Virus record (IMG/VR): IMGVR_UViG_3300033062_002687
Source of the DNA: a virus
Lineage: Duplodnaviria > Heunggongvirae > Uroviricota > Caudoviricetes
DNA: 64,000 nt
Strand: one strand, 5' to 3'
Shown here: positions 7,456-53,206 of the stretch, one piece after another
Position numbering within the stretch: position 1 is the first letter of the stretch
How the letters are laid out: every line of letters begins with the position of its first letter
Made by a program: the position numbers and the translations under genes
Notes under the pieces: generated by a model
Databases searched by the model: none
The model's input: only the letters and a program-made list of their open reading frames with translations
Told to the model about the DNA's origin: nothing

Positions 7456-7626
7456 CTCATAGATAATCACTTATATGGTGTTTGGTTTTAAGATCAATCT
7501 CTTCTGCGACTTCAATATCATCATCTGTCTGCAGATGCATGTCTTCGCAGTCGACATTCATGCATACATAACCGTGACCTAATCTTTGCATTTGATGATC
7601 ACATATTGGACAATGCATAGTCCGCA
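7456..7626 (-). CDS. zinc-ribbon micro-protein (56 aa, below ORF-track cutoff)
   Basis: Manual translation: MRTMHCPICDHQMQRLGHGYVCMNVDCEDMHLQTDDDIEVAEEIDLKTKHHISDYL. Confidence 0.3.
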
Positions 7627-7960
7627 TGAGATGACCTTGTTTTTAAAGTTTTTCATTTTTCAATTTCAACCCATCCATCATCCACCTTATATTTTATTCC
7701 GAATCTTGTCATGCACCATTTGCATAACCAAATGGAAGATTTTGTCTTTAATCTCTTAAGCTTAAATGTCAATTCCAATTCTCCCAGTTGAGATATATGA
7801 CGATATCTGCCGCATGTATGACAGTTATAACAGGTCATTTTCTACCTCACAATTTTAATTATCTTCAGTTTCTTCATTTGGAATTTCCTCATCACAATCA
7901 CAGTATTCAAGATTATAATATACCTTCCTGCACTTAGGGCAATAGGTTAAAGCCCATTTA

Positions 7961-8344
7961 TCATTCAGAGCAATTGTCTTCATTTACATCAGCCTTTGTT
8001 TTTTTCCTGAATACGATTCCCTGCCAACCATACATCTCAAGGAATTCTGCTACATAAAGATTCTGAACACAAAGAGCTGGAATATCTCCTGCACGATTAA
8101 ATGTCGTAGCTATGAGATTCTCTCCGACATATATCTCATCTTCATATTTTCCTTTTTTTATATGTATCTTTCCTTCGACGAAATTTGCCAAGACACTGAT
8201 CTCCTTGTCTATGTTTTCGATCTCATGTTGCAGTTCTTCTTTCCTCTGAACCTTTTTCATCAGCTCTGTATGCGACCATTTATGTTTCATTGTTTCCTCC
8301 TCCGAATTAAATACATCAAACTCAAAACTCCCATAACATTCCAA
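7961..8344 (-). CDS. hypothetical protein (127 aa)
   Basis: ORF in the leftward block with internal coiled-coil-like segment. Confidence 0.4.
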   Translation of the reverse strand: MECYGSFEFDVFNSEEETMKHKWSHTELMKKVQRKEELQHEIENIDKEISVLANFVEGKIHIKKGKYEDEIYVGENLIATTFNRAGDIPALCVQNLYVAEFLEMYGWQGIVFRKKTKADVNEDNCSE

Positions 8345-8956
8345 AATATAATGCTTGTGATATTATTATAAAACCAATGGCCTCTGATCAAATCATTGAC
8401 ATCTGCTACAAAGATTGTTATGAGATACATAGTTGGCAGAATGATATCCTCGTTCATTCTAATTCGCCTCCGCAAAATTCACATACCATCTTCGGATTAT
8501 CTCCATAAGCATAACTAAGCTTTTGCTTTACCTTTCCTTCTACAGGAGCCTGACAGTTCTCGCAGAAGTACATCAGCTCACCACAATGCCATATTCGACT
8601 ATCCTGAAGCAATCAGGCGTCCAAAGTTTTGAACCATGGTTGTTTAAGCATGCCTGTTGTTTTCTTTTAAAGTGATGAGCCTCATGATAACTGGTTGAAC
8701 AGAATTTTTTAAGCCCAAAATCGCAAACATCCCACAAACCATTTGCAAATTTTGCTTCAACTATCCAGACTTTGTTTTTGTTTTTCATTAGCTTCATCCT
8801 CCTTGAATACCCTTGCAGATCTTATCATGCTTTTCCTCTGCTTCCTGAGAATCTTCGAAATAATGAAAGACTCCAAGAGGCTTTCCGCATTTAATACATA
8901 CGACTTCTATGCCTTCCTTGCAGTATAATGATTCGTCTTTTATCGCTTGTGTCATT

Positions 8957-9634
8957 TTATCCTCCAGACCTATTAAAAGGATCTTGGTATATATATGTTG
9001 TGTCATTAAACCATGAATCAGCTTGTTGTTTATTGTTCACACGTACTGTGTCATTCTCACTAATTACGATTTCTGTGCCATTTGAATATTTGATATAAAA
9101 AATATGATTTGTCCCATGAACAGGCTCTAACAAACTTCTGATCAAATCATCATCAGATTGCCAACTTCCTCCTGACCAATTATAACCATGATAAATTCCA
9201 TTTGTATCTCCTGAAATCATATACCATATAGAATTTTTTTGAAAAACTATTGGATCTGAAGACCATGGATCAAATTCCTTTTTAGTATAGTCACAACTTT
9301 TGAGTAATTGATTGAAGACATTAAAAAAACAATACGTTCCTGGCTTTCCTAATTCCTGCATACGATTGAAAAATGACATTTCATTGTAGCAATCATAATC
9401 AATACGAACGGGAGATTCAACAGTGAAATTAAAGTCACAATGAAGAGGAATAGTGATAATAGTTGCATTGATTGGATTAGATGTTAGAACAAAATATAAC
9501 CCTAGATTTATAAGAAGAAGAACAGCTAAAGCGCAGGTTATTATTACTGTCGCTTTTCCTGGAGGAGGAAGAGGTTTCTCTGGATTATAATTTTCTTCCT
9601 CTTCTGGTTCTGATTTATCAAATAGGTCCGGCAT
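8957..9634 (-). CDS. membrane-anchored protein with extracytoplasmic domain (225 aa)
   Basis: Pro/Glu-rich N-terminus, one TM (VIITCALAVLLLINLGLYFVL), large C-terminal domain. Confidence 0.45.
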   Translation of the reverse strand: MPDLFDKSEPEEEENYNPEKPLPPPGKATVIITCALAVLLLINLGLYFVLTSNPINATIITIPLHCDFNFTVESPVRIDYDCYNEMSFFNRMQELGKPGTYCFFNVFNQLLKSCDYTKKEFDPWSSDPIVFQKNSIWYMISGDTNGIYHGYNWSGGSWQSDDDLIRSLLEPVHGTNHIFYIKYSNGTEIVISENDTVRVNNKQQADSWFNDTTYIYQDPFNRSGG

Positions 9635-9856
9635 CTTTTACACCTTTTACAACATTATTATAATTGATTGAAAAATCTCTGTCTAATAAAGGTTTATCTG
9701 CCTGAATAAATAATCCCTGAAAATAAACTATATGACATTTTTTGCAAAAACCATAAATGATCCAAGCAGCAATCTTGTCTTTATTTTTTACATCGGTGAT
9801 TCTCATGTCAAGCTGTTTGTTGCATTTACATTTCCCGCAATATTCCTGTATCTCCA

Positions 9857-10255
9857 TTATTTCCACCCGTTATTTGAAACGCCCCAATCTGATTTAGGTT
9901 CTGGTTCCTTTTTGATTTCTTCATAGTAAACTTCCCTTTTATCTTCAGGACTTGGCTTGATCTCTTCCTGATTATTTTCTTCCTGCTCTTCTGGTTCTGT
10001 ATATCTATCTCTATCTTCTCGCTCTGATTTGTCGACTACACGACCGCCTTTCTTGGTTGAATATGATGAAGATGATGAGGATGAATCTCCGCCTCTATTA
10101 GGAAATCCGATAAATATTCTTAAGATCCAGATACCGACAGTTATTACAACTATAGGAACCATCCATGTATGCATGAAACTTGTTGCTTGATCCAATCCTG
10201 CAGATGTAGCTAAAACATTGCTAACGTTTTCATTGTATGCTGGATTATATGACAT
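9857..10255 (-). CDS. membrane protein with Ser-rich and acidic tail
   Basis: TM (VPIVVITVGIWILRIFIGF), poly-Ser, Glu-rich C-terminus. Confidence 0.45.
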   Translation of the reverse strand: MSYNPAYNENVSNVLATSAGLDQATSFMHTWMVPIVVITVGIWILRIFIGFPNRGGDSSSSSSSYSTKKGGRVVDKSEREDRDRYTEPEEQEENNQEEIKPSPEDKREVYYEEIKKEPEPKSDWGVSNNGWK

Positions 10256-10264
10256 TCATATCAC

Positions 10265-10747
10265 CTAATCGCAGTACATCTCATGAGCTGAGATCTGCCT
10301 GCAGTACATAAAATTTGTGTCTCGGTTTATGATCGGAAGCACATGATTTGGCGTCAGGAAATATTCGCAGCTGTAACCTAGCTCCTTGAGAGCTGTGCAT
10401 ACATTGACTGAATAATCCCTGCATACCATTCCTGACTGCTTCATCTCTGAAGCTGTCTTGATAAACGGGTTGTTGTGAAATTTAATTGGGAAGTCATTGA
10501 ACTGTGTCAGGATGCATGTAACCGGATCCTGGAATGTTGTGGTATTGCAATAGCTGATAAGAGCCTGAAGCTGAGCATCATGAGATACTACCTTCTCTGA
10601 GATTGCATATTCTGCCTTGGCATAGGAATCTCCACTGATCCAAAAGACAACAGTTTCCTTGATGGTGAACATTAGGATGATAGCCATCATGATGTACATC
10701 ATTCTCCTGTCTGTCAGGATTACTTTTTTTTGTTTTTCTTTTGGCAT
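10265..10747 (-). CDS. membrane-anchored protein, possible transglutaminase-like cysteine-protease fold
   Basis: Likely start at internal MPKEKQ (10747), with TTTGGCAT overlap with the upstream stop. TM then GMVCRDYSVNVCTALKELGY...H, weakly reminiscent of Cys-His TGase-like cores. Confidence 0.3.
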   Translation of the reverse strand: MPKEKQKKVILTDRRMMYIMMAIILMFTIKETVVFWISGDSYAKAEYAISEKVVSHDAQLQALISYCNTTTFQDPVTCILTQFNDFPIKFHNNPFIKTASEMKQSGMVCRDYSVNVCTALKELGYSCEYFLTPNHVLPIINRDTNFMYCRQISAHEMYCD

Positions 10748-11079
10748 TTGAACCACATGTTTTGTGAATCGATTATGAACTTGCTTAGATCTTTTAGAGT
10801 ATATATTTTTCTTTTTGGATTCTTGCATTCGCACATTGGAAATGGACATCCTATAAACAATGTCGGATAGCCACAGCTCTGGCATAACGACAGCCGCCAT
10901 CCCTTCTTGAATTCGTTGTGCATCCTGAGCTCCTTCATCTTTTCTTTCTTCTTTGTTATGCAGCCACATCTGGCCATGTTGCAGAGTATTTCGTCGCTTT
11001 CCTTGTCAGATAAATCCTTCATTAAAAAAGTATTCTTTTGTATCCAAATATCTATTGGTTTATTAGTCATCGTTTCCAA
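10720..11079 (-). CDS. Cys-rich protein
   Basis: CNMARCGC...CQSCGY..CPFPMCECK. Confidence 0.4.
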   Translation of the reverse strand: METMTNKPIDIWIQKNTFLMKDLSDKESDEILCNMARCGCITKKKEKMKELRMHNEFKKGWRLSLCQSCGYPTLFIGCPFPMCECKNPKRKIYTLKDLSKFIIDSQNMWFKCQKKNKKK

Positions 11080-11171
11080 TTCCTCCGTTTTTCATACCAC
11101 TGCTTAAACTTCATGCACTGTTCACAAGCTTCTACAAAATAGCCGCCCTTTATATGGTCTTCATGGTTCAT

Positions 11172-11462
11172 TTAATCATACCTCTTTGGAAGATTCAATT
11201 CTTCGAACATATCCTTATGAGATTTTTCTTTCTTCTTGTTTTTGTTGCGCCAGTTATCTATAACCTTGTCAATCTCGAGAGCGATAACTGTAAGTGAAAA
11301 TACCATCATCATGACACCAATAATTATTTTGATGTTAGACCAGCTTGGCTGGAGAGATTTGAGAAAGATCTTTGCAAAGAAGTTATAACCAATAAGCATA
11401 ATTATCAGAGCTGCAATTATCTTGATATGAGACTTCTGCTTGTCTAATGATGTTCCAAACAT
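11172..11462 (-). CDS. membrane protein
   Basis: Two TM segments. Confidence 0.4.
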   Translation of the reverse strand: MFGTSLDKQKSHIKIIAALIIMLIGYNFFAKIFLKSLQPSWSNIKIIIGVMMMVFSLTVIALEIDKVIDNWRNKNKKKEKSHKDMFEELNLPKRYD

Positions 11463-12636
11463 ATTAGCCCCTCTCCGCTGTATGCATTACTTTCAACCAA
11501 AGCTTATGCCTTCTCTCAATGCTATCCCTGAACATCTTCCTTATCTTTCTATCCCTGACTTTTAAAAAATCTGATTCGTTTCTTGTCCCATCTGCAACTA
11601 CAGTCGCTAAGTCAAACATTTCTTTTCTGTTCAGGGTTATGATCACTTTTTCCTTAAGCCATTTTCTTGTGGTTGGAGTTTTCATGATTATCACTCAACA
11701 TCAATTTCCTCGACACCATCAAAGATGCCATCAGTTTCTCGTATGTGAAATTCGTTAAGCTTTGTTCTATGCGCAAAAGCTAAAGCATCCTTTTTCTTCC
11801 TGTATGCTTTCTTCCACATGAACCTCTTACCAGATATATTTTCATTTTCCCATCCATATCTTTTTTAATTTCCTAATATTAATAGTTAATTTGTCGAACT
11901 GTCGCTTGAATTCATTTACGCATTTTATATGAATATAATTTCCATCAGCAGATTTATTACGCGAACTGCACATTGGCTCTTCACACCATGAACAGATAGG
12001 CTTTAGAATAGTTTCCTCACAATAAATTTGCTCGAGAATTTCCCAATTATGCCTATGCCAATCCCATTGGCTAATAGCCATAATGTCTGCCCACCTTCTG
12101 TCATGCCAATTCATTTTTATATTCTCCTAATAATCAAATTCTCCCCATCCCCATCCAAAAATTTCATGTTTGAAACCATACCAATAAATTAATGCGGTGA
12201 TAATTATCAAACTAATCTGTATTGATTCCGTAGTCATTTTTAGTCCCACTCCAATGGATGAATCTTCTTTCCTGTTACGTCCTTGTATGCCCGATGAATA
12301 TCACTTTCTGGAATATCTGTTTTTCCTTCCTTCGTCATTGTGACTGTGATTCCCTGAAGATACTTAGATTTCTCCATCTTCTTTGCGAGAACCTTTCCGT
12401 ATATCTTCTCTACTTCTTCCCATATCATGATAATCATCTCACAGCTGTTAGCATATGCTTTTTGAATCTTTGCTTATCTTCTTCTGTTGGAAAGTTGCCA
12501 ATGAACTGATTTTCCTCAATCTCCTTAAATAACTCAAGATCAAAGTCAGTCGCTTCGAGACTTCCCAAGCTTTTTAGCATGGCGAATTGCACACCTGTTA
12601 TCCAATATCTTTCTCCCATCTTTTCACCTCAATATA

Positions 12637-12987
12637 TTAATCATCCTCTACTATGGGCAATATAAAGTTGCCGATCTTCATGTCGACGCAGCGATGAGCG
12701 CGCGTCACTGGCTTGTACTTCTTCTTGCTATGGAGCGATTTATATAGCTTTTCGAAATCTTTCGCCTCAAGCCTCATGACAGCTTCCATCAATACTGTCT
12801 CCCTGTCCAATGATTCCTCAAGGATCTTAGCCATCTCCTTTGCCTTAGCTATTCTCTTCTGAACATCCTTCACTTCAATAAATATAAGCTTATCATTCTT
12901 TTGCTGTCCTTCATAGTACTTGCCATCAATCTTCATATATCCATATTCCTTATCAAATTTTAATTTTTCAATATTCATTCCAACCAC
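12637..12987 (-). CDS. hypothetical coiled-coil protein
   Basis: Charged helical repeats. Confidence 0.35.
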   Translation of the reverse strand: MVGMNIEKLKFDKEYGYMKIDGKYYEGQQKNDKLIFIEVKDVQKRIAKAKEMAKILEESLDRETVLMEAVMRLEAKDFEKLYKSLHSKKKYKPVTRAHRCVDMKIGNFILPIVEDD

Positions 12988-13367
12988 CCTTTCAATACCT
13001 GTTTAAAATTCTTGACCTTCCATTGCCTTGCAGACCGTATCTTTATCCATGATACTTTATTGCAGATCTCACATTTGACCTGCACCTCACTAGCTTTACT
13101 ATTTTTACCTAAAACAGCTCCGAGTGCAATAAGATTTCTTTCGCACATATGAGTTCCGAGCTTGCCTGCAAATTTCTTAACACATGACAGCGAACAGAAA
13201 CAATATCTTTGCTGCTCATCCTGATTACTTCCACATTCCTTGCATGATGGCTTTGTATCTGTAACTATAAGTTCATAAGGAGTTCTTTTTTCCTTTGAAC
13301 ACTGATGACAGACAATAGGCCTTACCACAACATAATTGATGCTACTCATTCCAACCACCCTTTGCAA
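12975..13367 (-). CDS. multi-zinc-finger protein
   Basis: CHQC..C.EC, CFCSLSC, C.IC - several CxxC pairs. Confidence 0.4.
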   Translation of the reverse strand: MQRVVGMSSINYVVVRPIVCHQCSKEKRTPYELIVTDTKPSCKECGSNQDEQQRYCFCSLSCVKKFAGKLGTHMCERNLIALGAVLGKNSKASEVQVKCEICNKVSWIKIRSARQWKVKNFKQVLKGWLE

Positions 13368-13573
13368 TGTTTCTTTTGATCATGACAGATAACGCACTGA
13401 TCAGGCGTTCCTGTCTGATCTACGTGATAAGCTGAGTTGTGCCCGCAGTTCTTACATTTTGCCATGCCTTTCTCCGCCTTTTTTATAAGGCCCAAATATC
13501 CTTTTGGTTTCTTCAATATATTTTTGCCTCTTTCTTTCAACGAGCCACATCGTAATTCCGAATCCTGCAGCAA
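13346..13573 (-). CDS. Cys-rich small protein
   Basis: CKNCGH...CVICHDQKKHC. Confidence 0.35.
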   Translation of the reverse strand: MLQDSELRCGSLKERGKNILKKPKGYLGLIKKAEKGMAKCKNCGHNSAYHVDQTGTPDQCVICHDQKKHCKGWLE

Positions 13574-14067
13574 AACAAAGGATAAGTATTAGCACAGTCT
13601 GAAACAACATCATGTTCCCGCATTCAACTAATGCATTCTTGTAATCCTCGACTGTAAGATTCTGAGCTGCTGTATTGCAGGTGCTACAAGCATGAGGCAC
13701 CATCAATGGCAAATAAAAAAACATATATGAGATTCCTATTTTTATCACCTATCAAAATATATATTTTTGACTTTCATTCCTGTTTGCTCAATAAGCTTTC
13801 GTAATTCATATTCAAAAAATAACTCTTCATCTTTTTGAATTGGCATATTTATACAATCCACATCAATCCTTATTTCTGCAGTCATATCGTAATCCATCAT
13901 CTCACCTGTCAAGCGCAGTGATTGCCTGCAACCATGTTAGTTGATGTTTCTTTTTATACTGAACAACGGTTATTATGTACCAAGCCATGTATGTCATAGC
14001 TGCACCTAAGAACCATCCACCTGCAAATATTAATCGTTCCTTATCTGTCATGATATCAACCTCCACT

Positions 14068-14355
14068 TCAAGGTCTTTTAACGTATTCATAATAGTTTAT
14101 TGTCGGTTCTCTGATAGTGGCACCTTCAGTAAAAAAACATAGCTTTTCTACATCTATTGGCTTATTATCAATCTCTAAATTTACGGGCTGAAAACAGTAA
14201 AGATGCCTTTCTTCATATTGCCATATATTCATGCCACCTGCTGCTTTCATCAATTTTAATGGTTCTTGTTGTTTTTTTTCTTCATTACAAGAGCAGCAAC
14301 CGCTGATTAGTACAATGCTAAACAACATTCCAATAATAAATAATTTCTTTTTCAT
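14068..14355 (-). CDS. putative lipoprotein
   Basis: MKKKLFIIGMLFSIVLISGCCSC: signal peptide with lipobox-like LISGC. Confidence 0.45.
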   Translation of the reverse strand: MKKKLFIIGMLFSIVLISGCCSCNEEKKQQEPLKLMKAAGGMNIWQYEERHLYCFQPVNLEIDNKPIDVEKLCFFTEGATIREPTINYYEYVKRP

Positions 14356-15286
14356 CTCAACCTCCTATGCCTGTGAGACCATTCCGCCAGTTTCTTTATA
14401 TCCTTGCTGAATATCCTGTTTATTTCATCTTGTTTCTTGAATGTTTTGTAGATTATCTCCTGCATCTCCCGCAATAGTTTCAATTTATTCAGAATATCTG
14501 TGTGGTCGTTGACCATTCCGATTATTTCATTAATCTTATCTTCTGTTAAATTACCCCTAATTTTTATCTTGTTTATTTTATTATCCATTTTTATTCACCA
14601 TCACCCTGCCACCATATATGAGCCAACAGCGATGCAAACAACTGTTATGATGAAACAGCCAATAATCAGGATTGTTTCTGTTTTTGAGTATTTCACTTTA
14701 CTGCCTCATATTTGTCAGAGCAGTGCTTTTTCCCGCACTTTTTCTTTATTAGTATCGCCTCGTTCTGATGCTTAACTGTATTTTCCTCCATTTGTTTCTT
14801 GGCAATAAACAGCCATGCATCCTTGTTGAATATCATCTCTTCACCTTCTCAATTACTTTCTTGAATGTATGAATTTTTCCACATCCACAGCGAAATCTCA
14901 ATATTCTTATTCCATGATAATACCAATCATCAGGCATCATGTTACCTTTGCTATTCATTATTGTCATATTCCCACCTTCTCCACGTCATACCAGCGTCTT
15001 TTATCTCCGCACATCTTTCGCACCGACTTCCTCAATCTCCGAATATAATCATAGCCATGTCATAAGATTTTTTAAATATTTCCCTGTTCCTCCTTGATTC
15101 TTCCTCAGTTTCCTTTAGGAATTTCATAAGGTTCATTTCTCCTCGACCTCCTTAGGATAACCTGCCTTCTTATTAATCTCACAATCATTTGGATTTCCAA
15201 AACAAGCAGGTAGTTTAGTGTAATTACTCATATATGGACAGTTGTTTTTTAAACAAATCCGTTCATCAAATCGTTTGATTAACATC

Positions 15287-15421
15287 TCATCTCACCTTCC
15301 TCCTGTCGAACCTACAGATATGAACTATGGAATCCCCTTCTTTGATAAATGATTTTACTAAAAACTCCTCTCCGCAATCATTACATCTAAGCAATGTTCC
15401 AACGACTGATAAACTGTTCAT
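15287..15421 (-). CDS. zinc-ribbon micro-protein, paralogue A1 (44 aa)
   Basis: Manual translation: MNSLSVVGTLLRCNDCGEEFLVKSFIKEGDSIVHICRFDRRKVR. Preceded by GGAAGGTGAGATG leader; about 95% nt identity over about 75 nt to copy at 17259-17332. Confidence 0.45.
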   Translation of the reverse strand: MNSLSVVGTLLRCNDCGEEFLVKSFIKEGDSIVHICRFDRRKVR

Positions 15422-15981
15422 CCTTTCACCTTCGTCTTGCTTTTATTACAAACACAATCGCCATACAATCGTAAGCATTTATCACATCTTACTTTTTCCA
15501 TCATCTCACCTTCCTCAATCTATATCCATACGCTCAAGCAAATGAATATATAAAGCTGAATTATTTTTAAGGAATTCCTCCTGAAGTATTTTTTTAATTT
15601 CTTTTTCTGTTTTCATCCCTTCACCGCCTCCATAAGTAAGCTCCTACAATACTTAAAAGAGTTAAAAATATAATTACAAATATTCCTAAGATTTGAAATA
15701 ATTGACTTTTCTTTTTCATTTCTCCTCGACCTCCTTGACCTCCGCATGGTTAATGAATATCTTGCGAGGAATTGGATAGTGGTTCGAGCCATAATCCATA
15801 CGGTTTAACCCGCCATTGAAAACGTCCTTTCGCATATTCACTTCACCGCCTCCTCCTTAAATTAATCCTTCAATACAATCTCTACGAGGTTTTTGACGCT
15901 TCTTTTCTTGTTTCAAGTCATCAATTAATCCTTCAATGTATCCCTTTATTATGTTCAGGTTTCGGATTATTTCAGAGTGTT

Positions 15982-16122
15982 TCATCCCTTCACCACCTCC
16001 TTCAATATTCTTTTTAGCCATCTCAAGTCCTTTTCATCGAGCAGGAGATGGTATAAGCCATACTTATCTTTATCAAAGATAAGCCTTAATGTTCCCCTGA
16101 TTTTAATTGTATTTAATGACAT
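15982..16122 (-). CDS. micro-protein paralogue B1 (46 aa)
   Basis: Manual translation: MSLNTIKIRGTLRLIFDKDKYGLYHLLLDEKDLRWLKRILKEVVKG. Near-identical copy at 16909-17052. Confidence 0.45.
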   Translation of the reverse strand: MSLNTIKIRGTLRLIFDKDKYGLYHLLLDEKDLRWLKRILKEVVKG

Positions 16123-16289
16123 CCCCCTGCCTCCTCAATCTTCTTAAAAGATTTCCAATGCCAATGACATTCTTTTTCCTGATATTCTTTATGTTTGTCA
16201 CAATAAAAAAACTTGTCATTCAGAGTTTTATGATATGCTATCCATGTTGCTGGCTTTTTACATTGCATAGCACATAAATGTTTCATCAT
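16113..16289 (-). CDS. Cys/His-rich micro-protein (58 aa)
   Basis: Manual translation: MMKHLCAMQCKKPATWIAYHKTLNDKFFYCDKHKEYQEKECHWHWKSF... AGGAAGGTGAGATGATG leader; ATGA overlap with the next gene. Confidence 0.4.
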   Translation of the reverse strand: MMKHLCAMQCKKPATWIAYHKTLNDKFFYCDKHKEYQEKECHWHWKSFKKIEEAGGCH

Positions 16290-16603
16290 CTCACCTTCCT
16301 GTCGGTTAATAATTCACTAAATACTTCTTTTTGCTTCTCCTCTGAAACCAAGTTCATGCAATCTAATATATTAGGTGATTGCAATTCAATAATATTTATA
16401 AGTTTCACTAATTTACATTTTGGAAAAGCATTTTTGATTTGATAAGCATGAATTCTGCAATAATGTTCACTTTGAATATTGCCATTTTTACTCTTAAAGC
16501 CATATTTTGCAGGGTTAATGCAGGAAGCGAAATAGCAACTATTATACGATTTTTTCATCCCTTCTCGACCTCCTCGTTTTCTAATCTTCTTTTTCGTGAA
16601 CAT
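16286..16603 (-). CDS. Cys-rich small protein (105 aa)
   Basis: CYFASC...HYCRIH. Confidence 0.4.
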   Translation of the reverse strand: MFTKKKIRKRGGREGMKKSYNSCYFASCINPAKYGFKSKNGNIQSEHYCRIHAYQIKNAFPKCKLVKLINIIELQSPNILDCMNLVSEEKQKEVFSELLTDRKVR

Positions 16604-16908
16604 TCAGAACACATCCAAATATCTTCATCTGATAATGTTTTTTCACCACAACTTAAACATATTCCCATTCATCTCACCTTCCTGTCGGTCTTGCCTATGG
16701 AATCCAATTTTGCCCAAGCATAACCAGCACTTATTCCCAATAAAAGCCATAATATTATTTCAATTTCATTCATCTCACCTTCCTCCTTAATCATAATATG
16801 TCATCAAACATTTTTCACTGCAAAACCATAAGTCTTTTCTATTTGGCATTGAATTAAAAATAACGTGTTCTGTTTTATTACCAAACTCTTTTTTACAATG
16901 ATAACATT

Positions 16909-17052
16909 TCATTGCTTCTCCTCAACTTCCTTCAATATTCTTTTTAGCCATCTCAAGTCCTTTTCATCAAGCAGAATATGATAAAGCCCGTGCTTGTCTT
17001 TATCAAAGATAATTATTAATGTCCCCCTGATTTTGATTGTATTTAATGACAT
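16909..17052 (-). CDS. micro-protein paralogue B2 (46 aa)
   Basis: Manual translation: MSLNTIKIRGTLIIIFDKDKHGLYHILLDEKDLRWLKRILKEVEEKQ. Confidence 0.45.
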   Translation of the reverse strand: MSLNTIKIRGTLIIIFDKDKHGLYHILLDEKDLRWLKRILKEVEEKQ

Positions 17053-17188
17053 CCCTTCTCAACCTCCTTCTCTAAAAAATCCAAAGTCCAAGATGTAGGA
17101 ATAATATTCCTACAACTCCTACGTTGCTGTATGAACTTCTTTATATCAGAAACTTTTACATATTCAATTCCTTTAATTATTGTTTTTT

Positions 17189-17329
17189 TCATCCCTTCTT
17201 CACCTTCCTTTTGTCGGTCTTGCAGATATGAATAATTGAATCACCAGATTTAAGCAATGATTTTACTAAAAATTCCTCTCCGCAATCATTACATCTAAGC
17301 AATGTTCCAACGACTGATAAACTATTCAT
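17189..17329 (-). CDS. zinc-ribbon micro-protein, paralogue A2 (46 aa)
   Basis: Manual translation: MNSLSVVGTLLRCNDCGEEFLVKSLLKSGDSIIHICKTDKRKVKKG. Confidence 0.45.
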   Translation of the reverse strand: MNSLSVVGTLLRCNDCGEEFLVKSLLKSGDSIIHICKTDKRKVKKG

Positions 17330-17532
17330 CCTTTCGCACCGACCTTTGGTTCATTAGCAATCATTATTATTCCTACACACAAGCAAACCATTCCAATTAG
17401 GCATTCAAATGCTAATGTAAGAATATTTTTAAAAATCCATGAAATGAATCCTAATATAAAAAAAAGAACCGCAAACACTATTAAAGTGATTGCAGCCTTT
17501 TTTTTACTGCTGAGCTTGCGCTGATCACTCAC
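17326..17532 (-). CDS. small membrane protein
   Basis: Two TM segments. Confidence 0.4.
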   Translation of the reverse strand: MSDQRKLSSKKKAAITLIVFAVLFFILGFISWIFKNILTLAFECLIGMVCLCVGIIMIANEPKVGAKG

Positions 17533-18863
17533 GCAAGATCCCCTCTGAATTCGACCTGCTTAAGATTCGAATTGTAAACAAACCTGCCTTTTCCATTGCA
17601 AACCCTGATGATTTCCTTCTGGTATAAAAAGATCTTGTTTATGATCTTTTCAAAATTCTTCCATGATACATCATTTGGCTTTAATGCTGTACTCAGTGCA
17701 AGATAATCCAATGCCTCCTTATGGGAAATCATTCGTTCTATAATAGGCTGCAGATCAATTGAACTAACATTGCCTGTGGTCATAACATCCCAGCTGAAAT
17801 CCCCTGATTCCCTTTCCTTCAGCCTTAGCTGATTGCAATCGAAGCACCTGACGTGACCATGGCCTAATGGCAATGGCTTTCCGCAGTCAACACATTTTGG
17901 ACTTGTGATAGGATGATCACGCTGCATATATTGGGGTTCGATTGGTTTCCTTGTTTCCTCTGGCTTAAGCGTTTCATGAAAGATTGGCTTTTCGATATCT
18001 GCCTTTGCTTCTACATCAGATATCTTTCCACGCTTTTTGAGATGCCACATATAGTTAGAGATGGTGTTTCTCTTGACTCCCAAAGCCCTGGCCAAATCAC
18101 CACGAGTCATCTTATCCATGTTTTCGTAAACAAACTTAATGTGCTCTTCCTGCTTACCTGGATATCTTTTCTTCTGAAGCTTGCCCTGCTTTTGCAAGAT
18201 GAAGATAGAATTCCTAACAGCGTATTCTGACAGACCAAATTTCTTCGCTATTGCTTTTGCATTCTTTGTTCTGTACATTAATTTGATCTCATCAATGTTT
18301 GACAAGAGAGTATTCATTGTCGCGCCATATCGCCTTCTTTTATCAAACTTCTTGATAACTTTAGGCCTTTCTGTATGATGATATGTCGGCTCTTTATTTC
18401 GTACATATCCATGCGCATCTGGATCAAGCTGTATCTTGTTCGAATAATATTTCTGCCTTCTGTTTCCAATCCAGGTTTTGATGAACCCGTCCTTTATTGG
18501 TTTCCTTAGAATTTTCCTGAATCTCGCAATATCAGGCCCTGAGTGATGCCCCAATATCCTATTCGTCAGTTCGGTTATTCCGATAGGATTCTTCGCAGAA
18601 TCAACGATGGCTACTGCAGCATTAATTATCTCATCGCTGCTTTTCTGGAATCTACTTTTTCTCCATCCATGAGCTTTCTGCTTTGAATGATCTAAAGCAA
18701 TTGATCGTTTAACTATTGCTTTCTCATCTTTTAATAAACCTTGAATCACTGCCCTTGTCTCCTCTCCATTTCCATTCTCTGCTTTTTGTAATTCCTCAAA
18801 CTCAATAAAATCCTTCATGTCAGTGAAGGATATCTTCTGACCCTTCCATTCAATTTCAATCAT
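17529..18863 (-). CDS. multi-HTH DNA-binding protein with C-terminal zinc ribbon (444 aa)
   Basis: At least two HTH-like segments (AIAKKFGLSEYAVRNSIFILQKQGKL; MTRGDLARALGVKRNTISNYMWHLKKRG) and CVDCGK...CFDC. Confidence 0.5.
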   Translation of the reverse strand: MIEIEWKGQKISFTDMKDFIEFEELQKAENGNGEETRAVIQGLLKDEKAIVKRSIALDHSKQKAHGWRKSRFQKSSDEIINAAVAIVDSAKNPIGITELTNRILGHHSGPDIARFRKILRKPIKDGFIKTWIGNRRQKYYSNKIQLDPDAHGYVRNKEPTYHHTERPKVIKKFDKRRRYGATMNTLLSNIDEIKLMYRTKNAKAIAKKFGLSEYAVRNSIFILQKQGKLQKKRYPGKQEEHIKFVYENMDKMTRGDLARALGVKRNTISNYMWHLKKRGKISDVEAKADIEKPIFHETLKPEETRKPIEPQYMQRDHPITSPKCVDCGKPLPLGHGHVRCFDCNQLRLKERESGDFSWDVMTTGNVSSIDLQPIIERMISHKEALDYLALSTALKPNDVSWKNFEKIINKIFLYQKEIIRVCNGKGRFVYNSNLKQVEFRGDLA

Positions 18864-22831: not shown

Positions 22832-23446
22832 CTATTCATTGAAGTTTACCTTTGGAGCATTCTCAGCTCCTGCCTGAGCCTCAAACATCTTGTACCTGTC
22901 AAAGTTGAATCCAAACATCCCTGCAAGCATGCTTGTTGGGAAGCTTCTTGTCTTCACTTCATATGCCTGGACTGCTGTATTGTAGTTATCCCTTTCGTAC
23001 TTGATCCTGTTCTCTGTTCCTGATAGCTCATCCTGCAATGACAAGAAATTCTGGCTTGCCTTAAGATCCGGATAAGCTTCCACAATTACCAACAGCCTTG
23101 ACATGACTGATGACATCTCTGTTCCTGCAGCATCTATCTCTGCTGGAGTCTTAGCAGCCTTGACATCATTCTGAGCCTGTCCTGCCTGGCTTCTGAGTTC
23201 TGTTATTTTTGTCAATGTTTCCTGCTCGTAATTCTTATATCCCTTCACTGTATCAACAAGGTTTGGGATCAAGTCCGCCCTTCGCTGATATGCTGTCTGC
23301 ACATTGCCCCATTTAGCTTTCACATTCACATCGGCGTTCACAAGCCCATTGTACATGCCCGCAACAATTGCGATGCATAACACAATGACAAGTGCTATCA
23401 CGCCTAATACCAATCCTATCTGTCCTTTCTTATTCATTTTTCTCAC
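22832..23446 (-). CDS. lemA: LemA family protein
   Basis: N-terminal TM followed by YNGLVN..VKAKWGNVQTAYQRRADLIPNLVDTVKGYKNYEQETL, the LemA signature (QRRxDLIPNLV). Confidence 0.85.
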   Translation of the reverse strand: MRKMNKKGQIGLVLGVIALVIVLCIAIVAGMYNGLVNADVNVKAKWGNVQTAYQRRADLIPNLVDTVKGYKNYEQETLTKITELRSQAGQAQNDVKAAKTPAEIDAAGTEMSSVMSRLLVIVEAYPDLKASQNFLSLQDELSGTENRIKYERDNYNTAVQAYEVKTRSFPTSMLAGMFGFNFDRYKMFEAQAGAENAPKVNFNE

Positions 23447-26354: not shown

Positions 26355-26780
26355 TTATGGATATATCATTAATATTTTCTTACCTTTCTTTCTTGCGTAT
26401 CTAATTGTAGCCCAAGTTCCACTTCTTAATTCCTCTTTGATTGATTTTGGACAAGCTATTAGTATATCAGTTGAATCTACTATACTGTGATTTCTTTCTA
26501 ATGGTGGCTTAGGTTCATAAATTTTACCACCTTCAGTAAATGCTCTTTGAGCTTCAATATTACATGGATGTTTTTCAATAGTAATTTCCCTAAATATATG
26601 ATCGGATACAAAAGTTTTCATTATCTTATGTGCATCTTCATCAGCACCTATACAATCTCCATGATGAAATTCAATGTGATTGTCAAAGTCATATTTTTCC
26701 ATCATTGTTGTTATAAAATCATCTCTTTGTTTTCTTGTCATGCCTTCTCTTGTACCAGTAAATCCTATTCTTATATCCAT
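26355..26780 (-). CDS. SLOG-type Rossmann protein, DUF2493-like
   Basis: IGFTGTREGMT...HHGDCIGADEDAHKI resembles the viVTGgRd...hGacpxGADxxA pattern of phage-associated SLOG/DUF2493 proteins. Confidence 0.45.
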   Translation of the reverse strand: MDIRIGFTGTREGMTRKQRDDFITTMMEKYDFDNHIEFHHGDCIGADEDAHKIMKTFVSDHIFREITIEKHPCNIEAQRAFTEGGKIYEPKPPLERNHSIVDSTDILIACPKSIKEELRSGTWATIRYARKKGKKILMIYP

Positions 26781-34626: not shown

Positions 34627-34906
34627 AATACCAGCTATGTTCTTTTATTTCATCAAAGATCTCGCTAGTTGCATTACAAGTTGGACAATGATATATTGTT
34701 TTCTTTTTCATTTGTCAAACACCAATCCGATAATTCCTACAACCAGTCCTATGAAAGCAACTGCCAACACAATTAAGACGATGCCTCCTGTTATTATGGA
34801 AGGAAACCATGTAGCCCACCAAGGCATTGGCTTGTTGAATCCGTATCTCAAGACGAGCATAAGACATTGAATAGTTATGTATGAAAGATGGATTCCTGGT
34901 TCTTTT

Positions 34907-34950
34907 AAAGAGCCAAATGTTTTAGCTTCTTTCTTTATTTCTGACACTCG
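34907..34950. repeat. 44-nt exact repeat, copy 1 (ttaaagagccaaatgttttagcttctttctttatttctgacact)
   Basis: Identical 44-mer at 53057-53100; in both places it spans the stop codon of an unrelated gene in a different frame. Confidence 0.8.
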
Positions 34951-35321
34951 CCTTCGCCTCCTTTCATCTTCCTGTCTTCTGAACTCTTCTTCTCTGATTG
35001 AATATAACAGGAGTTCAGACGCTTCTTCTTTGATCTTCTCATAGCGTCCCGGAAATAATTTGGACGATCCTTTCTGATCCGCTTCATCGCTTCCCGATTT
35101 TTGCATTTTCTTTTCATCCCCTGGATAAGATCCAATTCCTTGATTGCATATTCGGCATCTGTTTCCCTTTGCCTGTTAAGCCAATCATGATAGGCTTCAA
35201 GCGCCTTGCTCCTTTCAAACTTCGGCAATGTATCAAGCAGATCCTTTGTTATTGGCTGTATTTCGAAATTGTACTTGCTCCAATCTGTCTCTTTCCTTCT
35301 GCTAATTCTTCCACCTTCCAT
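34935..35321 (-). CDS. hypothetical basic protein (128 aa)
   Basis: 3' end lies inside the 44-nt repeat. Confidence 0.4.
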   Translation of the reverse strand: MEGGRISRRKETDWSKYNFEIQPITKDLLDTLPKFERSKALEAYHDWLNRQRETDAEYAIKELDLIQGMKRKCKNREAMKRIRKDRPNYFRDAMRRSKKKRLNSCYIQSEKKSSEDRKMKGGEGECQK

Positions 35322-39508: not shown

Positions 39509-40584
39509 CCTGAATCAGATTATATAATTCAATATCTTTTAGCTCGATAGGATATCCTTGGAATCGAATAAGATTTCCTTTACCTGACTTGATAATACAT
39601 TGTCCTCTATCATTGAAAGTTACTTCTGCCATTATCTCAATTCCTCTTTGATTGATTTTAAAATATCATCGCTCTTATAGTTTCATCTCTGCCATAACTC
39701 CTCTTTGATTGATTTCAAGATATCATCGCTCTTATAGTCTCCTCTTAAGCCAAGAAGTATGAGCCAAGTGATATGCTGAAAATCAACTTCCTCTTCTATG
39801 TTGTGAAAGCAGGAATTGCACGGGCAACCTGCATGCTGAATACCGCATCCTGTCTTCCTTGCAAACAACTCAATTAATCCTTTTGTGAATTGCCTTGTCA
39901 TTTTCTTTTCCTCCTCGCTAGTGCTGTCGAATAATTATTTCTTCTTATTTTGAATTGAATTTTTTTATTGTGGATTCTAAAGTCTGCATCATGAACCAAG
40001 CCACAAGAACAGCATATCATCTTAAAATTTTTACGGACAGGAGTTATCCATTCATCCTCTGGAAGATCTTTGTATTTCATTTTTCATTATCTCGTTTCTT
40101 CGATATAATATAAAGAACCTTACCATCAACATCTTTATTAATGACCAGCTTATATCCATCCTTGATTGTAAATATTACTTGCTCGTTTGATATGAGCTTT
40201 CCGTCTTCTGCCCTGTCTAATGTACGTTCTGTCTGCCACAATTTAATAACTGGCTCTGAATCATCATCCATTAATGAATCTGATTCATATATCTCAAGTT
40301 CCTCATTCCAAAATTGCATGTTCATTTTTTCATCTTCTTCTGAAACACATATTTGTTCAGCCAATAACCAAGCAGGAAATCGATTGGAAGAAACAGCAAT
40401 GTGAATTTCCAATATGAGAATTTAATTATATCAACAGCTATTACTGTGAGAATGAATGTTATTATTCCGTAGCCTGCCCTAACCTTGAGGAACAACCACA
40501 TTTCCCTGATGTTTATTTTGAAAAAGTTTTTCATTTGAATATTCGCTTAAGCAAGCTCAACTAATTTGCTTCGTATGTTGTGTT

Positions 40585-46265: not shown

Positions 46266-46856
46266 CTATATTCTTACGACGAGGCTCATTGGATTTTGAA
46301 TCCCTCGTGTCCAGTTCAATATCAACTGGCTTCCTATTGCTGCGATAATGACATTTCCATTCTGTATGATGCCTTGGTCAAGCTCATGCTTTAGCTGACA
46401 GCTATTGCCTTCCTCTGTTATCTCTCCCTTAAGAAATTTCTGCAACTCTGCCTGTGGCATCTCTTTAGTGAAGAAAGCGAATGACCTTCCTTCACTTCTT
46501 AAATCTATGAAGTATGTATCTGTAGAGAAACAGTAGTCATATATAAGTTTTCTGGTTGCTGAGTTATCAACTGCACTCACTATAAGGTCGTAATCCTTGA
46601 ACTGGTCTACGGACTTTATCTTATCCTTCTTGTAGTGAAAACAGTATCTGTCCCCTAATACCTCAGCCTTGTTCTTAAATATGTCTGTCTTTTCAAAGAG
46701 CTGATACTTGATGTTCTTAAGCTCAACTGAATCCATATCAGTTATTGTTATCGTAAAGTCATCAATATCTATCTGTCCATTCAACACAAGCCGGTTAAGC
46801 TCTCTTACAAGATATCCGCCAATCCCGCCTAGCCCAATTATTAAAATTCTCTTCAT
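46266..46856 (-). CDS. E1-like ThiF/MoeB-family adenylyltransferase (minimal, 196 aa)
   Basis: IIGLGGIGGYLV Rossmann P-loop; DMDSVELKNIKYQLF (D.D.ve.sNl.RQ); DLIVSAVDNSATRKLI. Confidence 0.6.
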   Translation of the reverse strand: MKRILIIGLGGIGGYLVRELNRLVLNGQIDIDDFTITITDMDSVELKNIKYQLFEKTDIFKNKAEVLGDRYCFHYKKDKIKSVDQFKDYDLIVSAVDNSATRKLIYDYCFSTDTYFIDLRSEGRSFAFFTKEMPQAELQKFLKGEITEEGNSCQLKHELDQGIIQNGNVIIAAIGSQLILNWTRGIQNPMSLVVRI

Positions 46857-48547: not shown

Positions 48548-48710
48548 TAGTCCACCTCATCTCCATACTTATGATTAATAGACATATTCCATCCATATAT
48601 TGATACGATTTCCTTCCAACCTTCTCGTTTCAATCCCTCACACACTTTCCGAGTATATGTATGTTTGGTTTTCTTTCCTTTTTGTAATATGTATACGTGC
48701 CCCATTTTAT

Positions 48711-53056: not shown

Positions 53057-53100
53057 TTAAAGAGCCAAATGTTTTAGCTTCTTTCTTTATTTCTGACACT
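53057..53100. repeat. 44-nt exact repeat, copy 2
   Basis: Identical to 34907-34950. Confidence 0.8.
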
Positions 53101-53206
53101 TGGAAAGACAAGCTTAGAAATATTTCCGTATTCTGTTTTGGTATCTGCTCTTGTCACGTCGACCTTAATTGTCTTTTTCATGAATTCTTTTAATGAAGTT
53201 TTCATT

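What the first reader, a model, noticed from the sequence alone, without database searches (positions are those of the whole stretch)
13737..17340. Dense cluster of about 20 micro-ORFs (25-60 aa, many CxxC) sharing a near-identical translation-initiation leader, with recent duplicates
The ORF track is nearly empty here, but the minus strand is tiled with tiny genes. Each is preceded by a strong SD-start module (GACAGGAAGGTGAGATG(A/T)TG or GGAGG(C/T)GG(T/A)GAAGGGATG) and frequently overlaps its neighbour by ATGA. Two gene pairs are near-identical copies 1.0-1.9 kb apart: A1 15287-15421 and A2 17189-17329 (zinc-ribbon MNSLSVVGTLLRCNDCGEEF...), and B1 15982-16122 and B2 16909-17052 (MSLNTIKIRGTL...LDEKDLRWLKRILKE). 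Their downstream partners differ, implying cassette shuffling. Arrays of rapidly diversifying micro-proteins in phage early regions are typical of host-takeover or anti-defence factors; the shared leader could also be a common regulatory RNA element.
Basis: seen in the sequence. Interest (0 to 1): 0.65.

Follow-up and report, generated by a model that had tools for sequence, protein, structure and literature searches.

The report
Hypervariable array of coupled micro-genes
A 3.8-kb stretch of an uncultivated, probably archaeal, virus-like genome carries about 25 tiny translationally chained protein genes that close relatives lack entirely, and the genes appear to be gained, lost and copied as whole cassettes at their shared ribosome-binding/stop-start junctions.

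Summary
On the minus strand, 17532 to 13745, 26 ORFs of 16-95 aa (g1-g25, with the 16-aa g18b counted in) tile the DNA. Almost all have a Shine-Dalgarno site, and most overlap their neighbour (ATGA) or lie 0-21 nt apart. The A1/A2 and B1/B2 duplicates are exactly where stated. The "shared leader" is not a separate RNA element. It is the last 15-22 nt of each upstream gene, encoding tails such as TDRKVR*, KEVEEK* and EVEKG*, which also carry the SD and the stop-start overlap for the next gene. Its three sequence families occur only inside this array in the 64-kb window.

The main new result is comparative. Three related metagenome contigs keep the flanking genes (nucleotide blocks 78-93% identical) but lack the whole segment 17512-13713. 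In its place they have about 335 nt: a diverged g1 plus one A-like zinc-ribbon micro-gene. Four more single-gene indels nearby are each flanked by 7-24-nt direct repeats at the stop-start junction.

Best reading: a lineage-specific accessory array of translationally coupled micro-proteins (zinc-binding, membrane, helical) that evolves by cassette shuffling at standardised junctions. The function is unknown. Only family A has an outside homologue, and it also sits in a micro-gene array. This is a new variant of known phage hyperplastic regions.

The parts
13713..17512 (-). Lineage-specific variable segment (most of g1, plus g2 to g25). It is replaced by about 335 nt in relatives L004, L005 and L006.
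   Evidence: blastn synteny breaks at window 17513 and resumes at 13712 in all three relatives; blastp synteny.
17529..18863 (-). 444-aa winged-HTH protein gene directly upstream. Its stop overlaps the g1 start. It served as the conserved anchor for finding relatives.
   Evidence: Pfam HTH_11/FaeA; homologues P0003 (73% identity) and P0004 (70%).
17326..17532 (-). g1: 68 aa, membrane protein. Relatives have a same-length allele only 34-39% identical.
17189..17329 (-). g2 = A2: 46 aa, zinc-knuckle protein (CxxC...HxC). Positional counterpart of the single A-like micro-gene in relatives.
17043..17192 (-). g3: 49 aa, basic. Its tail EKEVEKGCH* carries the SD for B2. The SNP at 17094 relative to the JGI contigs is synonymous.
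16909..17052 (-). g4 = B2: 47 aa, predicted beta-hairpin plus helix.
16787..16912 (-). g5: 41 aa, C-x2-C-x22-C-x3-C (TRASH/FCS-like spacing).
   Evidence: read from the sequence
16669..16773 (-). g6: 34 aa, hydrophobic, tail TDRKVR*.
16555..16668 (-). g7: 37 aa, zinc ribbon with two CxxC. Not called by JGI.
16286..16558 (-). g8: 90 aa, Cys/His-rich, tail TDRKVR*.
16113..16286 (-). g9: 57 aa, Cys/His-rich. By eye it resembles the g8 motif C-x3/4-C..PA..YC-x2-H..YQ.
   Evidence: the resemblance was not detected by blastp
15982..16122 (-). g10 = B1: 46 aa.
15857..15985 (-). g11: 42 aa, charged and helical.
15716..15835 (-). g12: 39 aa, tail KEVEEK*.
15621..15719 (-). g13: 32 aa, single transmembrane helix.
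15515..15616 (-). g14: 33 aa.
15418..15501 (-). g15: 27 aa, CxxC...CxC. Not called by JGI.
15287..15421 (-). g16 = A1: 44 aa.
15133..15285 (-). g17: 50 aa, four Cys, tail KEVEEK*.
15032..15136 (-). g18: 34 aa.
14964..15014 (-). g18b: 16-aa ORF that bridges the only long gap. Its leader GTCGGTGCGAAAG is identical to the one before A2. It may be a truncated cassette.
14833..14967 (-). g19: 44 aa.
14693..14836 (-). g20: 47 aa.
14601..14696 (-). g21: 31 aa, transmembrane, GTG start, weak SD. Not called by JGI.
14352..14588 (-). g22: 78 aa, helical. Its N-terminus weakly resembles family B.
14068..14355 (-). g23: 95 aa, lipoprotein-like signal (LISGC).
13902..14051 (-). g24: 49 aa, hydrophobic.
13745..13897 (-). 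g25: 50 aa, acidic, last gene of the variable segment.
13452..13748 (-). g26: first conserved gene after the array, 86-89% aa identity in relatives.
12975..13349 (-). g28: 124-aa multi-zinc-ribbon cassette. Flanked by the direct repeat AAAGGGTGGTTGGAATGA (13346-13363 and 12975-12992). Precisely absent at that junction in L004, L005 and L006, and placed one gene further on in L004/L005.
   Evidence: (D16)
16669..16689 (-). Junction module type I, ACCGACAGGAAGGTGAGATGA. An identical copy lies at 16286-16306. Shorter copies start at 16783, 15514, 15300 and 13907.
   Evidence: (D7)
15715..15736 (-). Junction module type IIb, AAGGAGGTCGAGGAGAAATGAA. An identical copy lies at 15132-15153.
   Evidence: (D3)
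16556..16573 (-). Junction module type II, GGAGGNNGNGAAGGGATG. Other copies at 17050-17067, 15983-16000 and 15614-15631.

Best explanation
The region is a lineage-specific accessory array of about 25 protein-coding micro-genes in a large, uncultivated virus-like element. It lies in a hyperplastic zone downstream of an HTH-regulator gene.

Expression (inferred from anatomy): the genes form one polycistronic string. Each gene's last codons encode the Shine-Dalgarno site and the stop-start overlap of the next gene, so ribosomes are handed on by termination-reinitiation or re-recruited at the internal SD.

Evolution (shown by comparison): genes are gained, lost, duplicated and moved as whole cassettes with breakpoints at these junctions. 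The junctions are mutually similar (15-22 nt, three families), so they provide short direct repeats for recombination or replication slippage. Any cassette placed behind any other keeps its reading frame, stop and ribosome-binding site.

Function (inferred, weakest step): the products are small zinc-binding, membrane and helical proteins. They most likely act as dispensable, fast-turnover modulators of virus-host interaction, not as core replication or virion functions.
For: Coding and coupling:
- SD-preceded ORF tiling is far above shuffles, and frame-specific codon usage fits the annotated frames.
- 13 junctions overlap by 4 nt, and the others mostly lie between -10 and +21 nt.
- No promoter or terminator enrichment.
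- The duplicates show 6 and 9 synonymous against 8 and 7 mostly conservative non-synonymous codon changes.
- The A-family homologue P0017 (E = 4e-5 against 1.84 billion representatives; 56% identity) sits in another ATGA-coupled Cys-rich micro-gene array.

Junctions:
- The motifs are confined to the array.
- Junction similarity is about 10-fold above other SD-bearing junctions.
- 21-22-nt identical junctions sit between unrelated genes (D3 and D7).
- Homology between the duplicates starts and stops at the junctions.

Comparison with relatives:
- L004, L005 and L006 keep the flanks, with nucleotide blocks 78-93% identical near the array.
- They replace 17512-13713 by about 335 nt holding a diverged g1 and one A-like gene.
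- g28 is flanked by an 18-24-nt junction repeat and is precisely absent or relocated in relatives.
- Three further single-gene indels are flanked by 7-8-nt repeats that include the ATGA/ATGAT start.

The array is present in three independent contigs with only 2 SNPs in 21 kb, so it is not an assembly artefact. Termination-reinitiation at ATGA overlaps, and the role of intragenic SD motifs, are established experimentally in archaea and bacteria (PMC6728339).
Against: - There are no expression, ribosome or peptide data.
- Of the array genes, only family A has any homologue outside the element, so protein-level conservation is untested for about 20 of them.
- Their codon-usage score lies between spurious ORFs and long genes.
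- Junction similarity could partly reflect convergent selection for an optimal SD and spacer rather than recombination.
- The short (7-8 nt) repeats at three indels are also what random illegitimate recombination filtered by selection would leave.
- The direction of the event (gain here or loss in relatives) is not resolved.
- AlphaFold models of A and B are low-confidence (pLDDT 64-65), so no fold assignment is possible.
Confidence: 0.65

Rival explanations
1. This is an ordinary cluster of small viral ORFan genes. The junctions look alike only because strong SD motifs, purine-rich spacers and ATGA overlaps are independently selected for efficient reinitiation. Indels arise by random illegitimate recombination, and only those at gene borders survive (the classical mosaicism model). 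The junctions are not recombination substrates.
For: - ATGA starts and SD motifs are genome-wide (46 of 92 non-array genes start ATGA).
- Three of the four small indels have only 7-8-nt repeats.
- Mosaic boundaries at gene borders are general in phage genomes (PMC3233612 and PMC2993671, listed).
Against: - 21-22-nt identical junctions, including bases upstream of the SD (ACCGAC...) that have no obvious role in initiation, lie between unrelated genes.
- The motifs are absent from the other 60 kb although SD use there is similar.
- g28 is flanked by an 18-nt perfect repeat whose single copy marks the empty site in three relatives.
Confidence: 0.25
2. The conserved leader is a cis-acting RNA element (regulatory structure or protein-binding site) repeated along a mostly non-coding or weakly coding transcript. 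The micro-ORFs would then be incidental.
For: - The motif is repeated more often than the proteins are conserved.
- Most of the peptides have no homologues.
Against: - No Rfam family matches in the region.
- Junction neighbourhoods fold no better than shuffles.
- The motifs sit in a fixed reading frame relative to the upstream stop and the downstream start.
- The ORFs tile the strand with SD sites far beyond chance.
- The duplicates and P0017 show protein-level constraint.
Confidence: 0.03
3. The micro-ORFs are debris of larger genes broken by frameshifts and stops, or an artefact of reading a recoded genome with the standard code.
For: TGA is the stop of 22 of the 26 ORFs g1-g25, g18b included.
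Against: - TGA dominance follows from the ATGA overlaps.
- Long genes in the same window are intact under code 11, with full-length Pfam matches such as LemA 1-149/149 and Ku 2-188/190.
- Successive ORFs change frame, and each has its own SD and start.
- The concatenated peptides hit nothing larger in 50,697 phage genomes or in Pfam/PHROGs.
Confidence: 0.03

Closest known systems
PeSL-bounded hyperplastic regions of T4-type phages (Arbiol et al. 2010, PMC2839356; Comeau et al. 2014, PMC4122927)
   Same: Both are clusters of small, non-essential ORFan genes. Close relatives differ by whole-gene insertions, deletions and replacements. A short regulatory motif repeated between the genes marks the exchange points.
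   Different: PeSLs are intergenic composites of an early sigma-70 promoter and a stem-loop terminator. Here there is no intergenic space, no promoter or terminator signal and no stem-loop. The repeated module is translational (SD plus stop-start overlap) and forms part of the upstream gene's coding sequence. Mini-circles have not been shown.
Translational coupling by termination-reinitiation at ATGA/TGATG overlaps (Huber et al. 2019, PMC6728339)
   Same: Co-directed genes with -4/-1 overlaps, with an SD motif inside the 3' end of the upstream gene.
   Different: That mechanism was described for gene pairs, often encoding complex subunits. Here it is chained over about 25 unrelated micro-genes, and the SD-bearing tails fall into three near-identical sequence families.
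Small CxxC / zinc-finger micro-proteins of archaea and haloarchaeal tailed viruses (PMC7230728, PMC6562870, PMC10716476)
   Same: Many proteins under 100 aa carry one or two Cys pairs, have unknown function, and are unevenly clustered outside the virion module.
   Different: No Pfam, NCBIfam or PHROG membership above threshold. Only half of the array proteins have Cys pairs. The archaeal host is inferred, not shown.
Integron gene-cassette arrays
   Same: A string of small, promoterless, same-orientation cassettes of unrelated content with recognisable boundary sequences.
   Different: No attC-type inverted repeats. No integrase was listed among the families matched by ORFs of at least 70 aa in the window. 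Cassettes are fused in frame-defined overlaps rather than separated by recombination sites.
Intergenic repeats of halovirus HF1/HF2 (PMC8707807)
   Same: Repeated short regulatory sequences interspersed among small genes of an archaeal tailed virus.
   Different: The HF2 repeats are intergenic, AT-rich promoters of 29-58 bp. Here the repeats are intragenic, purine-rich SD modules.

Membership tests
Translationally coupled (termination-reinitiation) operon | Co-directed genes with -4/-1 overlaps or very short gaps | tested here: met
   13 junctions overlap by 4 nt, two by 1 nt and two by 10 nt. The rest have gaps of 0-21 nt once the 16-aa g18b is counted.
Translationally coupled (termination-reinitiation) operon | SD motif inside the 3' end of the upstream gene | tested here: met
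   23 of the ORFs of at least 27 aa have a match of 5 nt or more to AAGGAGGTGATC, 3-13 nt upstream of the start.
Translationally coupled (termination-reinitiation) operon | Downstream translation depends on upstream translation | not testable with these tools
   Needs reporter constructs with premature stop codons, as in PMC6728339.
PeSL mobile regulatory cassettes | Composite early promoter plus stem-loop terminator between genes | tested here: not met
   Promoter-like and terminator-like sites are at shuffle level (35 against 33.0; 3 against 3.6). Junction folds are not above shuffles.
PeSL mobile regulatory cassettes | Indels between close relatives are bounded by the repeated motif | tested here: met
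   g28 is bounded by an 18-24-nt repeat. Three other indels are bounded by 7-8-nt repeats. The right edge of the array lies at the ATAGG(G)TGA junction.
PeSL mobile regulatory cassettes | Circular excision products (mini-circles) | not testable with these tools
   Needs outward-facing PCR or read-level analysis of the source samples.
Integron cassette array | attC sites (imperfect inverted repeats) and an IntI integrase | tested here: not met
   No inverted repeats at cassette borders. No integrase family appears among the 15 Pfam families or the 25 listed PHROG families matched by the 115 ORFs of at least 70 aa.
Zinc-ribbon / zinc-finger micro-proteins | Four metal ligands in two knuckles within a protein under 70 aa | tested here: inconclusive
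   The motif is present in g5, g7, g15, A1/A2 (CxxC...HxC) and g27. There are only sub-threshold Pfam hits and weak knuckle-only matches to C2H2 fingers in the PDB. Metal binding has not been shown.
Structured cis-regulatory RNA | Conserved secondary structure or an Rfam family match | tested here: not met
Known defence systems | Match to a curated family | tested here: not met
   PADLOC gave 0 families for the 28 proteins. No anti-defence (Acr) library was available, so that membership was not tested.
Early / host-takeover module | Early transcription and host-directed toxicity | not testable with these tools
   No transcript timing or expression data. The promoter type of the probable archaeal host is not covered by the scan.

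The most novel reading that the evidence does not exclude
The standardised SD/stop-start linkers act as true recombination sites of an integrase-free cassette system. A virus would build, reshuffle and exchange arrays of micro-proteins because every cassette carries, as its own C-terminal tail, the ribosome-binding site and frame-correct stop for whatever gene lands behind it. The result would be a translational 'plug-and-play' counterpart of integrons and PeSLs, possibly in a virus of methanogenic archaea.
Probability: 0.3. Interest if true: 0.65.

Novelty: new variant of a known kind. Interest (0 to 1): 0.5.

Why it matters
Small viral ORFan genes are the largest pool of unexplained genes, and how they turn over is poorly understood. 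This locus offers a clean natural example. A 3.8-kb, roughly 25-gene array is present in one lineage and absent from three relatives, and several single-gene indels have sequence-resolved breakpoints at translational junctions. If the junction modules really drive the exchange, that would explain how viruses can try out new micro-proteins without breaking operon expression. It would also give a simple sequence signature for finding such arrays elsewhere. In addition, the locus shows that standard annotation still misses some micro-genes (g7, g15, g21, g18b). Finally, it points to a possibly new large virus of Methanomicrobiales-like archaea.

Tried and rejected
- Near-identity and protein searches against 50,697 phage genomes found nothing, either for the region or for the HTH protein.
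- The 28 concatenated micro-proteins gave no tblastn hit at E <= 0.1.
- The concatenated query to the search for homologous proteins failed because the candidate cap was filled by low-information words; that search was wasted.
- IMG/VR scans returned no relatives for the HTH protein, the A-family profile, g23 or g8.
- Scans of IMG/VR for the junction motifs gave 1 and 3 isolated hits. The 21-nt match in L012 lies antisense inside a 475-aa gene, and none of the loci shares proteins with the window, so these are chance matches.
- Family B has no homologue outside the element among 5.8 billion proteins.
- Pfam, PHROGs, NCBIfam and PADLOC gave nothing significant for the micro-proteins.
- AlphaFold2 models of A and B were low-confidence (pLDDT 64 and 65), so I ran no fold searches.
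- PDB sequence searches returned only generic zinc-knuckle matches for A and nothing for B.
- All-against-all comparison of the micro-proteins found no further clear paralogues beyond A and B. B against the g22 N-terminus is marginal, and g8/g9 is seen only by eye.
- The sigma-70 promoter and terminator scan was uninformative.

Full report
**Source and context**

The window is the first 64 kb of a 140-kb JGI metagenome contig (Ga0346507_10243960). The same sequence was assembled in two further contigs, of 91.0 and 140.3 kb. Over 21 kb the JGI contigs differ from the window at two bases. One of these, at 17094, is a synonymous change in g3.

Nearly all genes lie on the minus strand, with strong GC skew. 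Recognisable genes include:
- Ku
- an ATP-dependent DNA ligase and two RNA-ligase-like genes
- a TROVE/Ro60 protein
- ThiF and a JAB-domain protein
- LemA, SPFH/Band 7 and TPM-domain proteins
- mycobacteriophage GP88
- HNH endonucleases
- a tRNA cluster

Most ORFs match no family. There is no near relative among 50,697 phage genomes, and none was found in IMG/VR. The content fits a large virus, but no capsid or terminase gene lies in the window. I could not walk further along the contig.

Four hints point to an archaeal host, probably a methanogen:
- The closest genomic relative of the LemA gene is in a Methanomicrobiales MAG (50% identity).
- The best phage match of the TROVE protein is Halogranum tailed virus 1 (34% identity over 97%).
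- A tRNA-like gene carries an insertion of about 52 nt in the anticodon arm.
- A weak eRF1-domain hit lies further along the contig.

**The observation**

Reading the minus strand from 17532 to 13745 gives 26 consecutive ORFs (g1 to g25, plus a 16-aa g18b) of 16-95 aa. Thirteen junctions are 4-nt ATGA overlaps. Two overlap by 1 nt and two by 10 nt. The rest are gaps of 0-21 nt.

Under a strict criterion, 23 SD-preceded ORFs of at least 27 aa cover 80% of the strand. Dinucleotide shuffles give a mean of 3.2 ORFs (maximum 9) and 8.8% coverage (maximum 25%). The opposite strand gives 2 ORFs and 3.7%.

In 23 of 28 ORFs the annotated frame is the best of six by the codon usage of the element's long genes. 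The figure for 45-codon pieces of those long genes is 132 of 142. The per-codon score of the micro-ORFs is higher than for antisense ORFs (P = 6e-4) and lower than for long genes.

In A, 6 differing codons are synonymous and 8 are not. In B the counts are 9 and 7. The replacements are mostly conservative, which implies purifying selection on the proteins. Differences are clustered, with perfect runs of 50 and 41 nt (P = 5e-4 and 4e-3 under uniform divergence). That pattern suggests partial gene conversion between copies or region-specific constraint.

The JGI gene caller had called about 21 of these genes but not g7, g15, g21 or g18b.

**What the "leader" is**

The conserved sequence before each start codon is the 3' end of the preceding gene. 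It encodes tails such as TDRKVR*, KEVEEK*, E(E/K)VEKG* and KGWLE*. It also carries the SD and the stop that overlaps the next ATG, always in the same frame relationship.

Three sequence families occur:
- type I, (ACCGAC)AGGAAGGTGAGATGA
- type II, GGAGGNNGNGAAGGGATGA
- type IIb, AAGGAGGTCGAGGAGAAATGA

All copies lie between 13.9 and 17.1 kb; none occurs in the other 60 kb. Two pairs are identical over 21 and 22 nt although the genes on either side are unrelated.

Junction pairs sharing at least 16 of 22 nt are about ten times more frequent inside the array (2.3%) than among SD-bearing junctions elsewhere in the contig. The latter figure is 0.2%, with a maximum of 0.67% in 1000 resamples. ATGA starts as such are genome-wide: 46 of 92 outside the array.

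The junction neighbourhoods have no Rfam match and fold no better than shuffles. A structured RNA element is therefore not supported.

**Cassette boundaries inside the array**

Homology between A1 and A2 begins about 10 nt before the ATG and ends in the SD module AGGAAGGTGA. Homology between B1 and B2 begins at GGGATG and ends at AAGGA(G/A)GT. The neighbours of the copies are unrelated. The unit of duplication is therefore one gene, from start codon to the SD-bearing tail.

**Comparison with relatives (the decisive result)**

The HTH protein directly upstream has two homologues, at 73% and 70% identity. Their contigs L004 (7.8 kb), L005 (3.4 kb) and L006 (4.1 kb) could be fetched.

Gene order and identity are conserved on both sides:
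- the 121-aa gene, 97-98%
- the HTH gene, 70-73%
- g26, 86-89%
- g27, 88-92%
- the 116-aa gene, 95%
- further genes downstream, mostly 70-92% (one at 53%)

Nucleotide homology stops at window 17513, which is 19 nt into g1, and resumes at 13712. The 3,800 nt in between are replaced in all three relatives by about 335 nt. That replacement holds a same-length but only 34-39% identical g1 allele and a single 45-aa zinc-ribbon micro-gene. This micro-gene shares L-x-C-x2-C-G-E-E-F with family A (pairwise BLASTP E = 1e-4). It occupies the position of A2. The right edge lies in the junction ATAGG(G)TGA, which is the SD of g26.

The finding's coordinates (13737-17340) therefore almost coincide with a lineage-specific block.

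**Neighbouring single-gene indels**

The DNA next to the array shows the same behaviour at the scale of single genes.

- g28 is flanked in the window by AAAGGGTGGTTGGAATGA at both ends. In the three relatives a single copy of this junction joins g27 directly to the next gene.
- In L004 and L005 a g28 homologue sits one gene further on, behind the junction TGAGGTG(G/A)AAAGATGGGA. The window has a different 61-aa ORF at that position.
- Three more window-specific micro-genes are absent from relatives: 12243-12115, 11838-11686 and 12636-12439. Each is flanked by a 7-8-nt direct repeat containing the start and stop (AAAAATGA, ATGAAAA, GATGATTA).

**The proteins**

- Thirteen of the 26 have a Cys pair. 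Cys content is 4.2%, against 1.6% in the long genes.
- g5 has TRASH-like spacing. g7 and g27 are two-knuckle zinc ribbons. A has CxxC...HxC.
- g1, g13 and g21 are clearly hydrophobic; g6 and g24 are moderately so. g23 has a lipoprotein-like signal.
- None reaches significance in Pfam, PHROGs, NCBIfam or PADLOC.
- Each of the seven array proteins that could be looked up is a singleton cluster, seen only on the three contigs.
- Family B has no homologue among 5.8 billion proteins.
- A profile of family A, run exhaustively against 1.84 billion representatives, found one small true homologue, P0017 (41 aa). The other hits were eukaryotic multi-zinc-finger proteins matched only on the knuckle.
- P0017 lies in an unrelated 14.7-kb contig (GC 37.5%) within another run of ATGA-coupled, Cys-rich micro-genes, with similar SD-coding tails.
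- AlphaFold models of A and B are low-confidence.

**Interpretation**

Shown:
- The micro-genes are real coding units.
- The "leader" is an intragenic SD/stop-start module.
- The modules of this array are more alike than SD function alone explains.
- The array is an indel relative to three relatives.
- Cassette-sized indels nearby have breakpoints at junction repeats.

Inferred:
- Expression is by termination-reinitiation or SD-assisted reinitiation along one mRNA. The mechanism is established in PMC6728339.
- The junction modules act as recombination or slippage substrates. Because each cassette carries the next gene's ribosome-binding site and frame-correct stop, shuffling does not break expression.
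- The products are dispensable modulators of virus-host interaction.

The last point is the weakest. It rests only on dispensability among relatives, small size, and zinc-binding or membrane character.

**Comparison with known systems**

The nearest described systems are the PeSL-bounded hyperplastic regions of T4-type phages (PMC2839356, PMC4122927). The logic is the same, but the repeated module differs: transcriptional and intergenic there, translational and intragenic here.

Clusters of CxxC micro-proteins are known in haloarchaeal tailed viruses (PMC7230728). The array is not an integron: no attC-type repeats were found and no integrase appeared among the matched families.

**Verdict**

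It is a new variant of a known kind and of moderate interest. Function is unresolved.

Noticed in passing
window 58118-58243 (-): A tRNA-like gene (Rfam tRNA, 35.5 bits) with an insertion of about 52 nt in the anticodon-arm region. ARAGORN missed it. An intron of this size and position is typical of archaea and eukaryotes rather than bacteria.
   Followed up: partly
window 22832-23446 (-), 61202-62716 (-); L009 5361-5735: Host hints. The LemA gene is closest to a Methanomicrobiales MAG (50% identity). The best phage match of the TROVE/Ro60 protein is Halogranum tailed virus 1. There is a weak eRF1_2 domain hit further along the contig. The element may be a large virus of methanogenic archaea.
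   Followed up: partly
window 60630-61020 (-): GT-rich degenerate repeats (GGTGGTGGGGTGTT, GTGTGGCGGTGTGTGG, TACTCGGTGGTGGTG) in an apparently non-coding stretch beside the Ro60/TROVE gene. This could be a non-coding RNA or repeat region.
   Followed up: no
window 53057-53100 and 34905-34948 (-): A 44-nt exact direct repeat that forms a shared 5' module of two otherwise different ORFs (34708-35106 and 53007-53111).
   Followed up: no
window 39639-39659 and 26428-26448 (-): A 21-nt exact repeat, AAAATCAATCAAAGAGGAATT, with a 17-nt third copy at 39715. It looks like another shared SD-containing junction outside the array.
   Followed up: no
window 47879-50157 (-): Three adjacent paralogous genes of 222-259 aa (29-37% identity) with no family match.
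   Followed up: no
window 46266-46856 (-) and neighbours: A ThiF-family E1-like gene, plus a Prok-JAB domain protein somewhere in the window. Together they suggest a ubiquitin-like conjugation module on a viral element.
   Followed up: no
window 16555-16668, 15418-15501, 14601-14696, 14964-15014 (-): Four micro-ORFs (g7, g15, g21, g18b) that fit the coupling chain are missing from the JGI gene calls. JGI instead extends g8 to 105 aa across the end of g7.
   Followed up: yes
L007 7269-9895 (contig BAEC19-1...scaffold_17167): An unrelated contig has its own run of ATGA-coupled Cys-rich micro-genes. It includes the A-family homologue P0017 and a second A-like gene (8698-8826). An HNH endonuclease gene and a gene with a Phage_integrase Pfam domain lie nearby.
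   Followed up: partly
window 7600-12640 (-) against L004: Several further whole-gene indels and one highly diverged gene (8957-9634, 53% identity) distinguish the window from L004. The hyperplastic zone therefore extends at least 10 kb beyond the array.
   Followed up: partly
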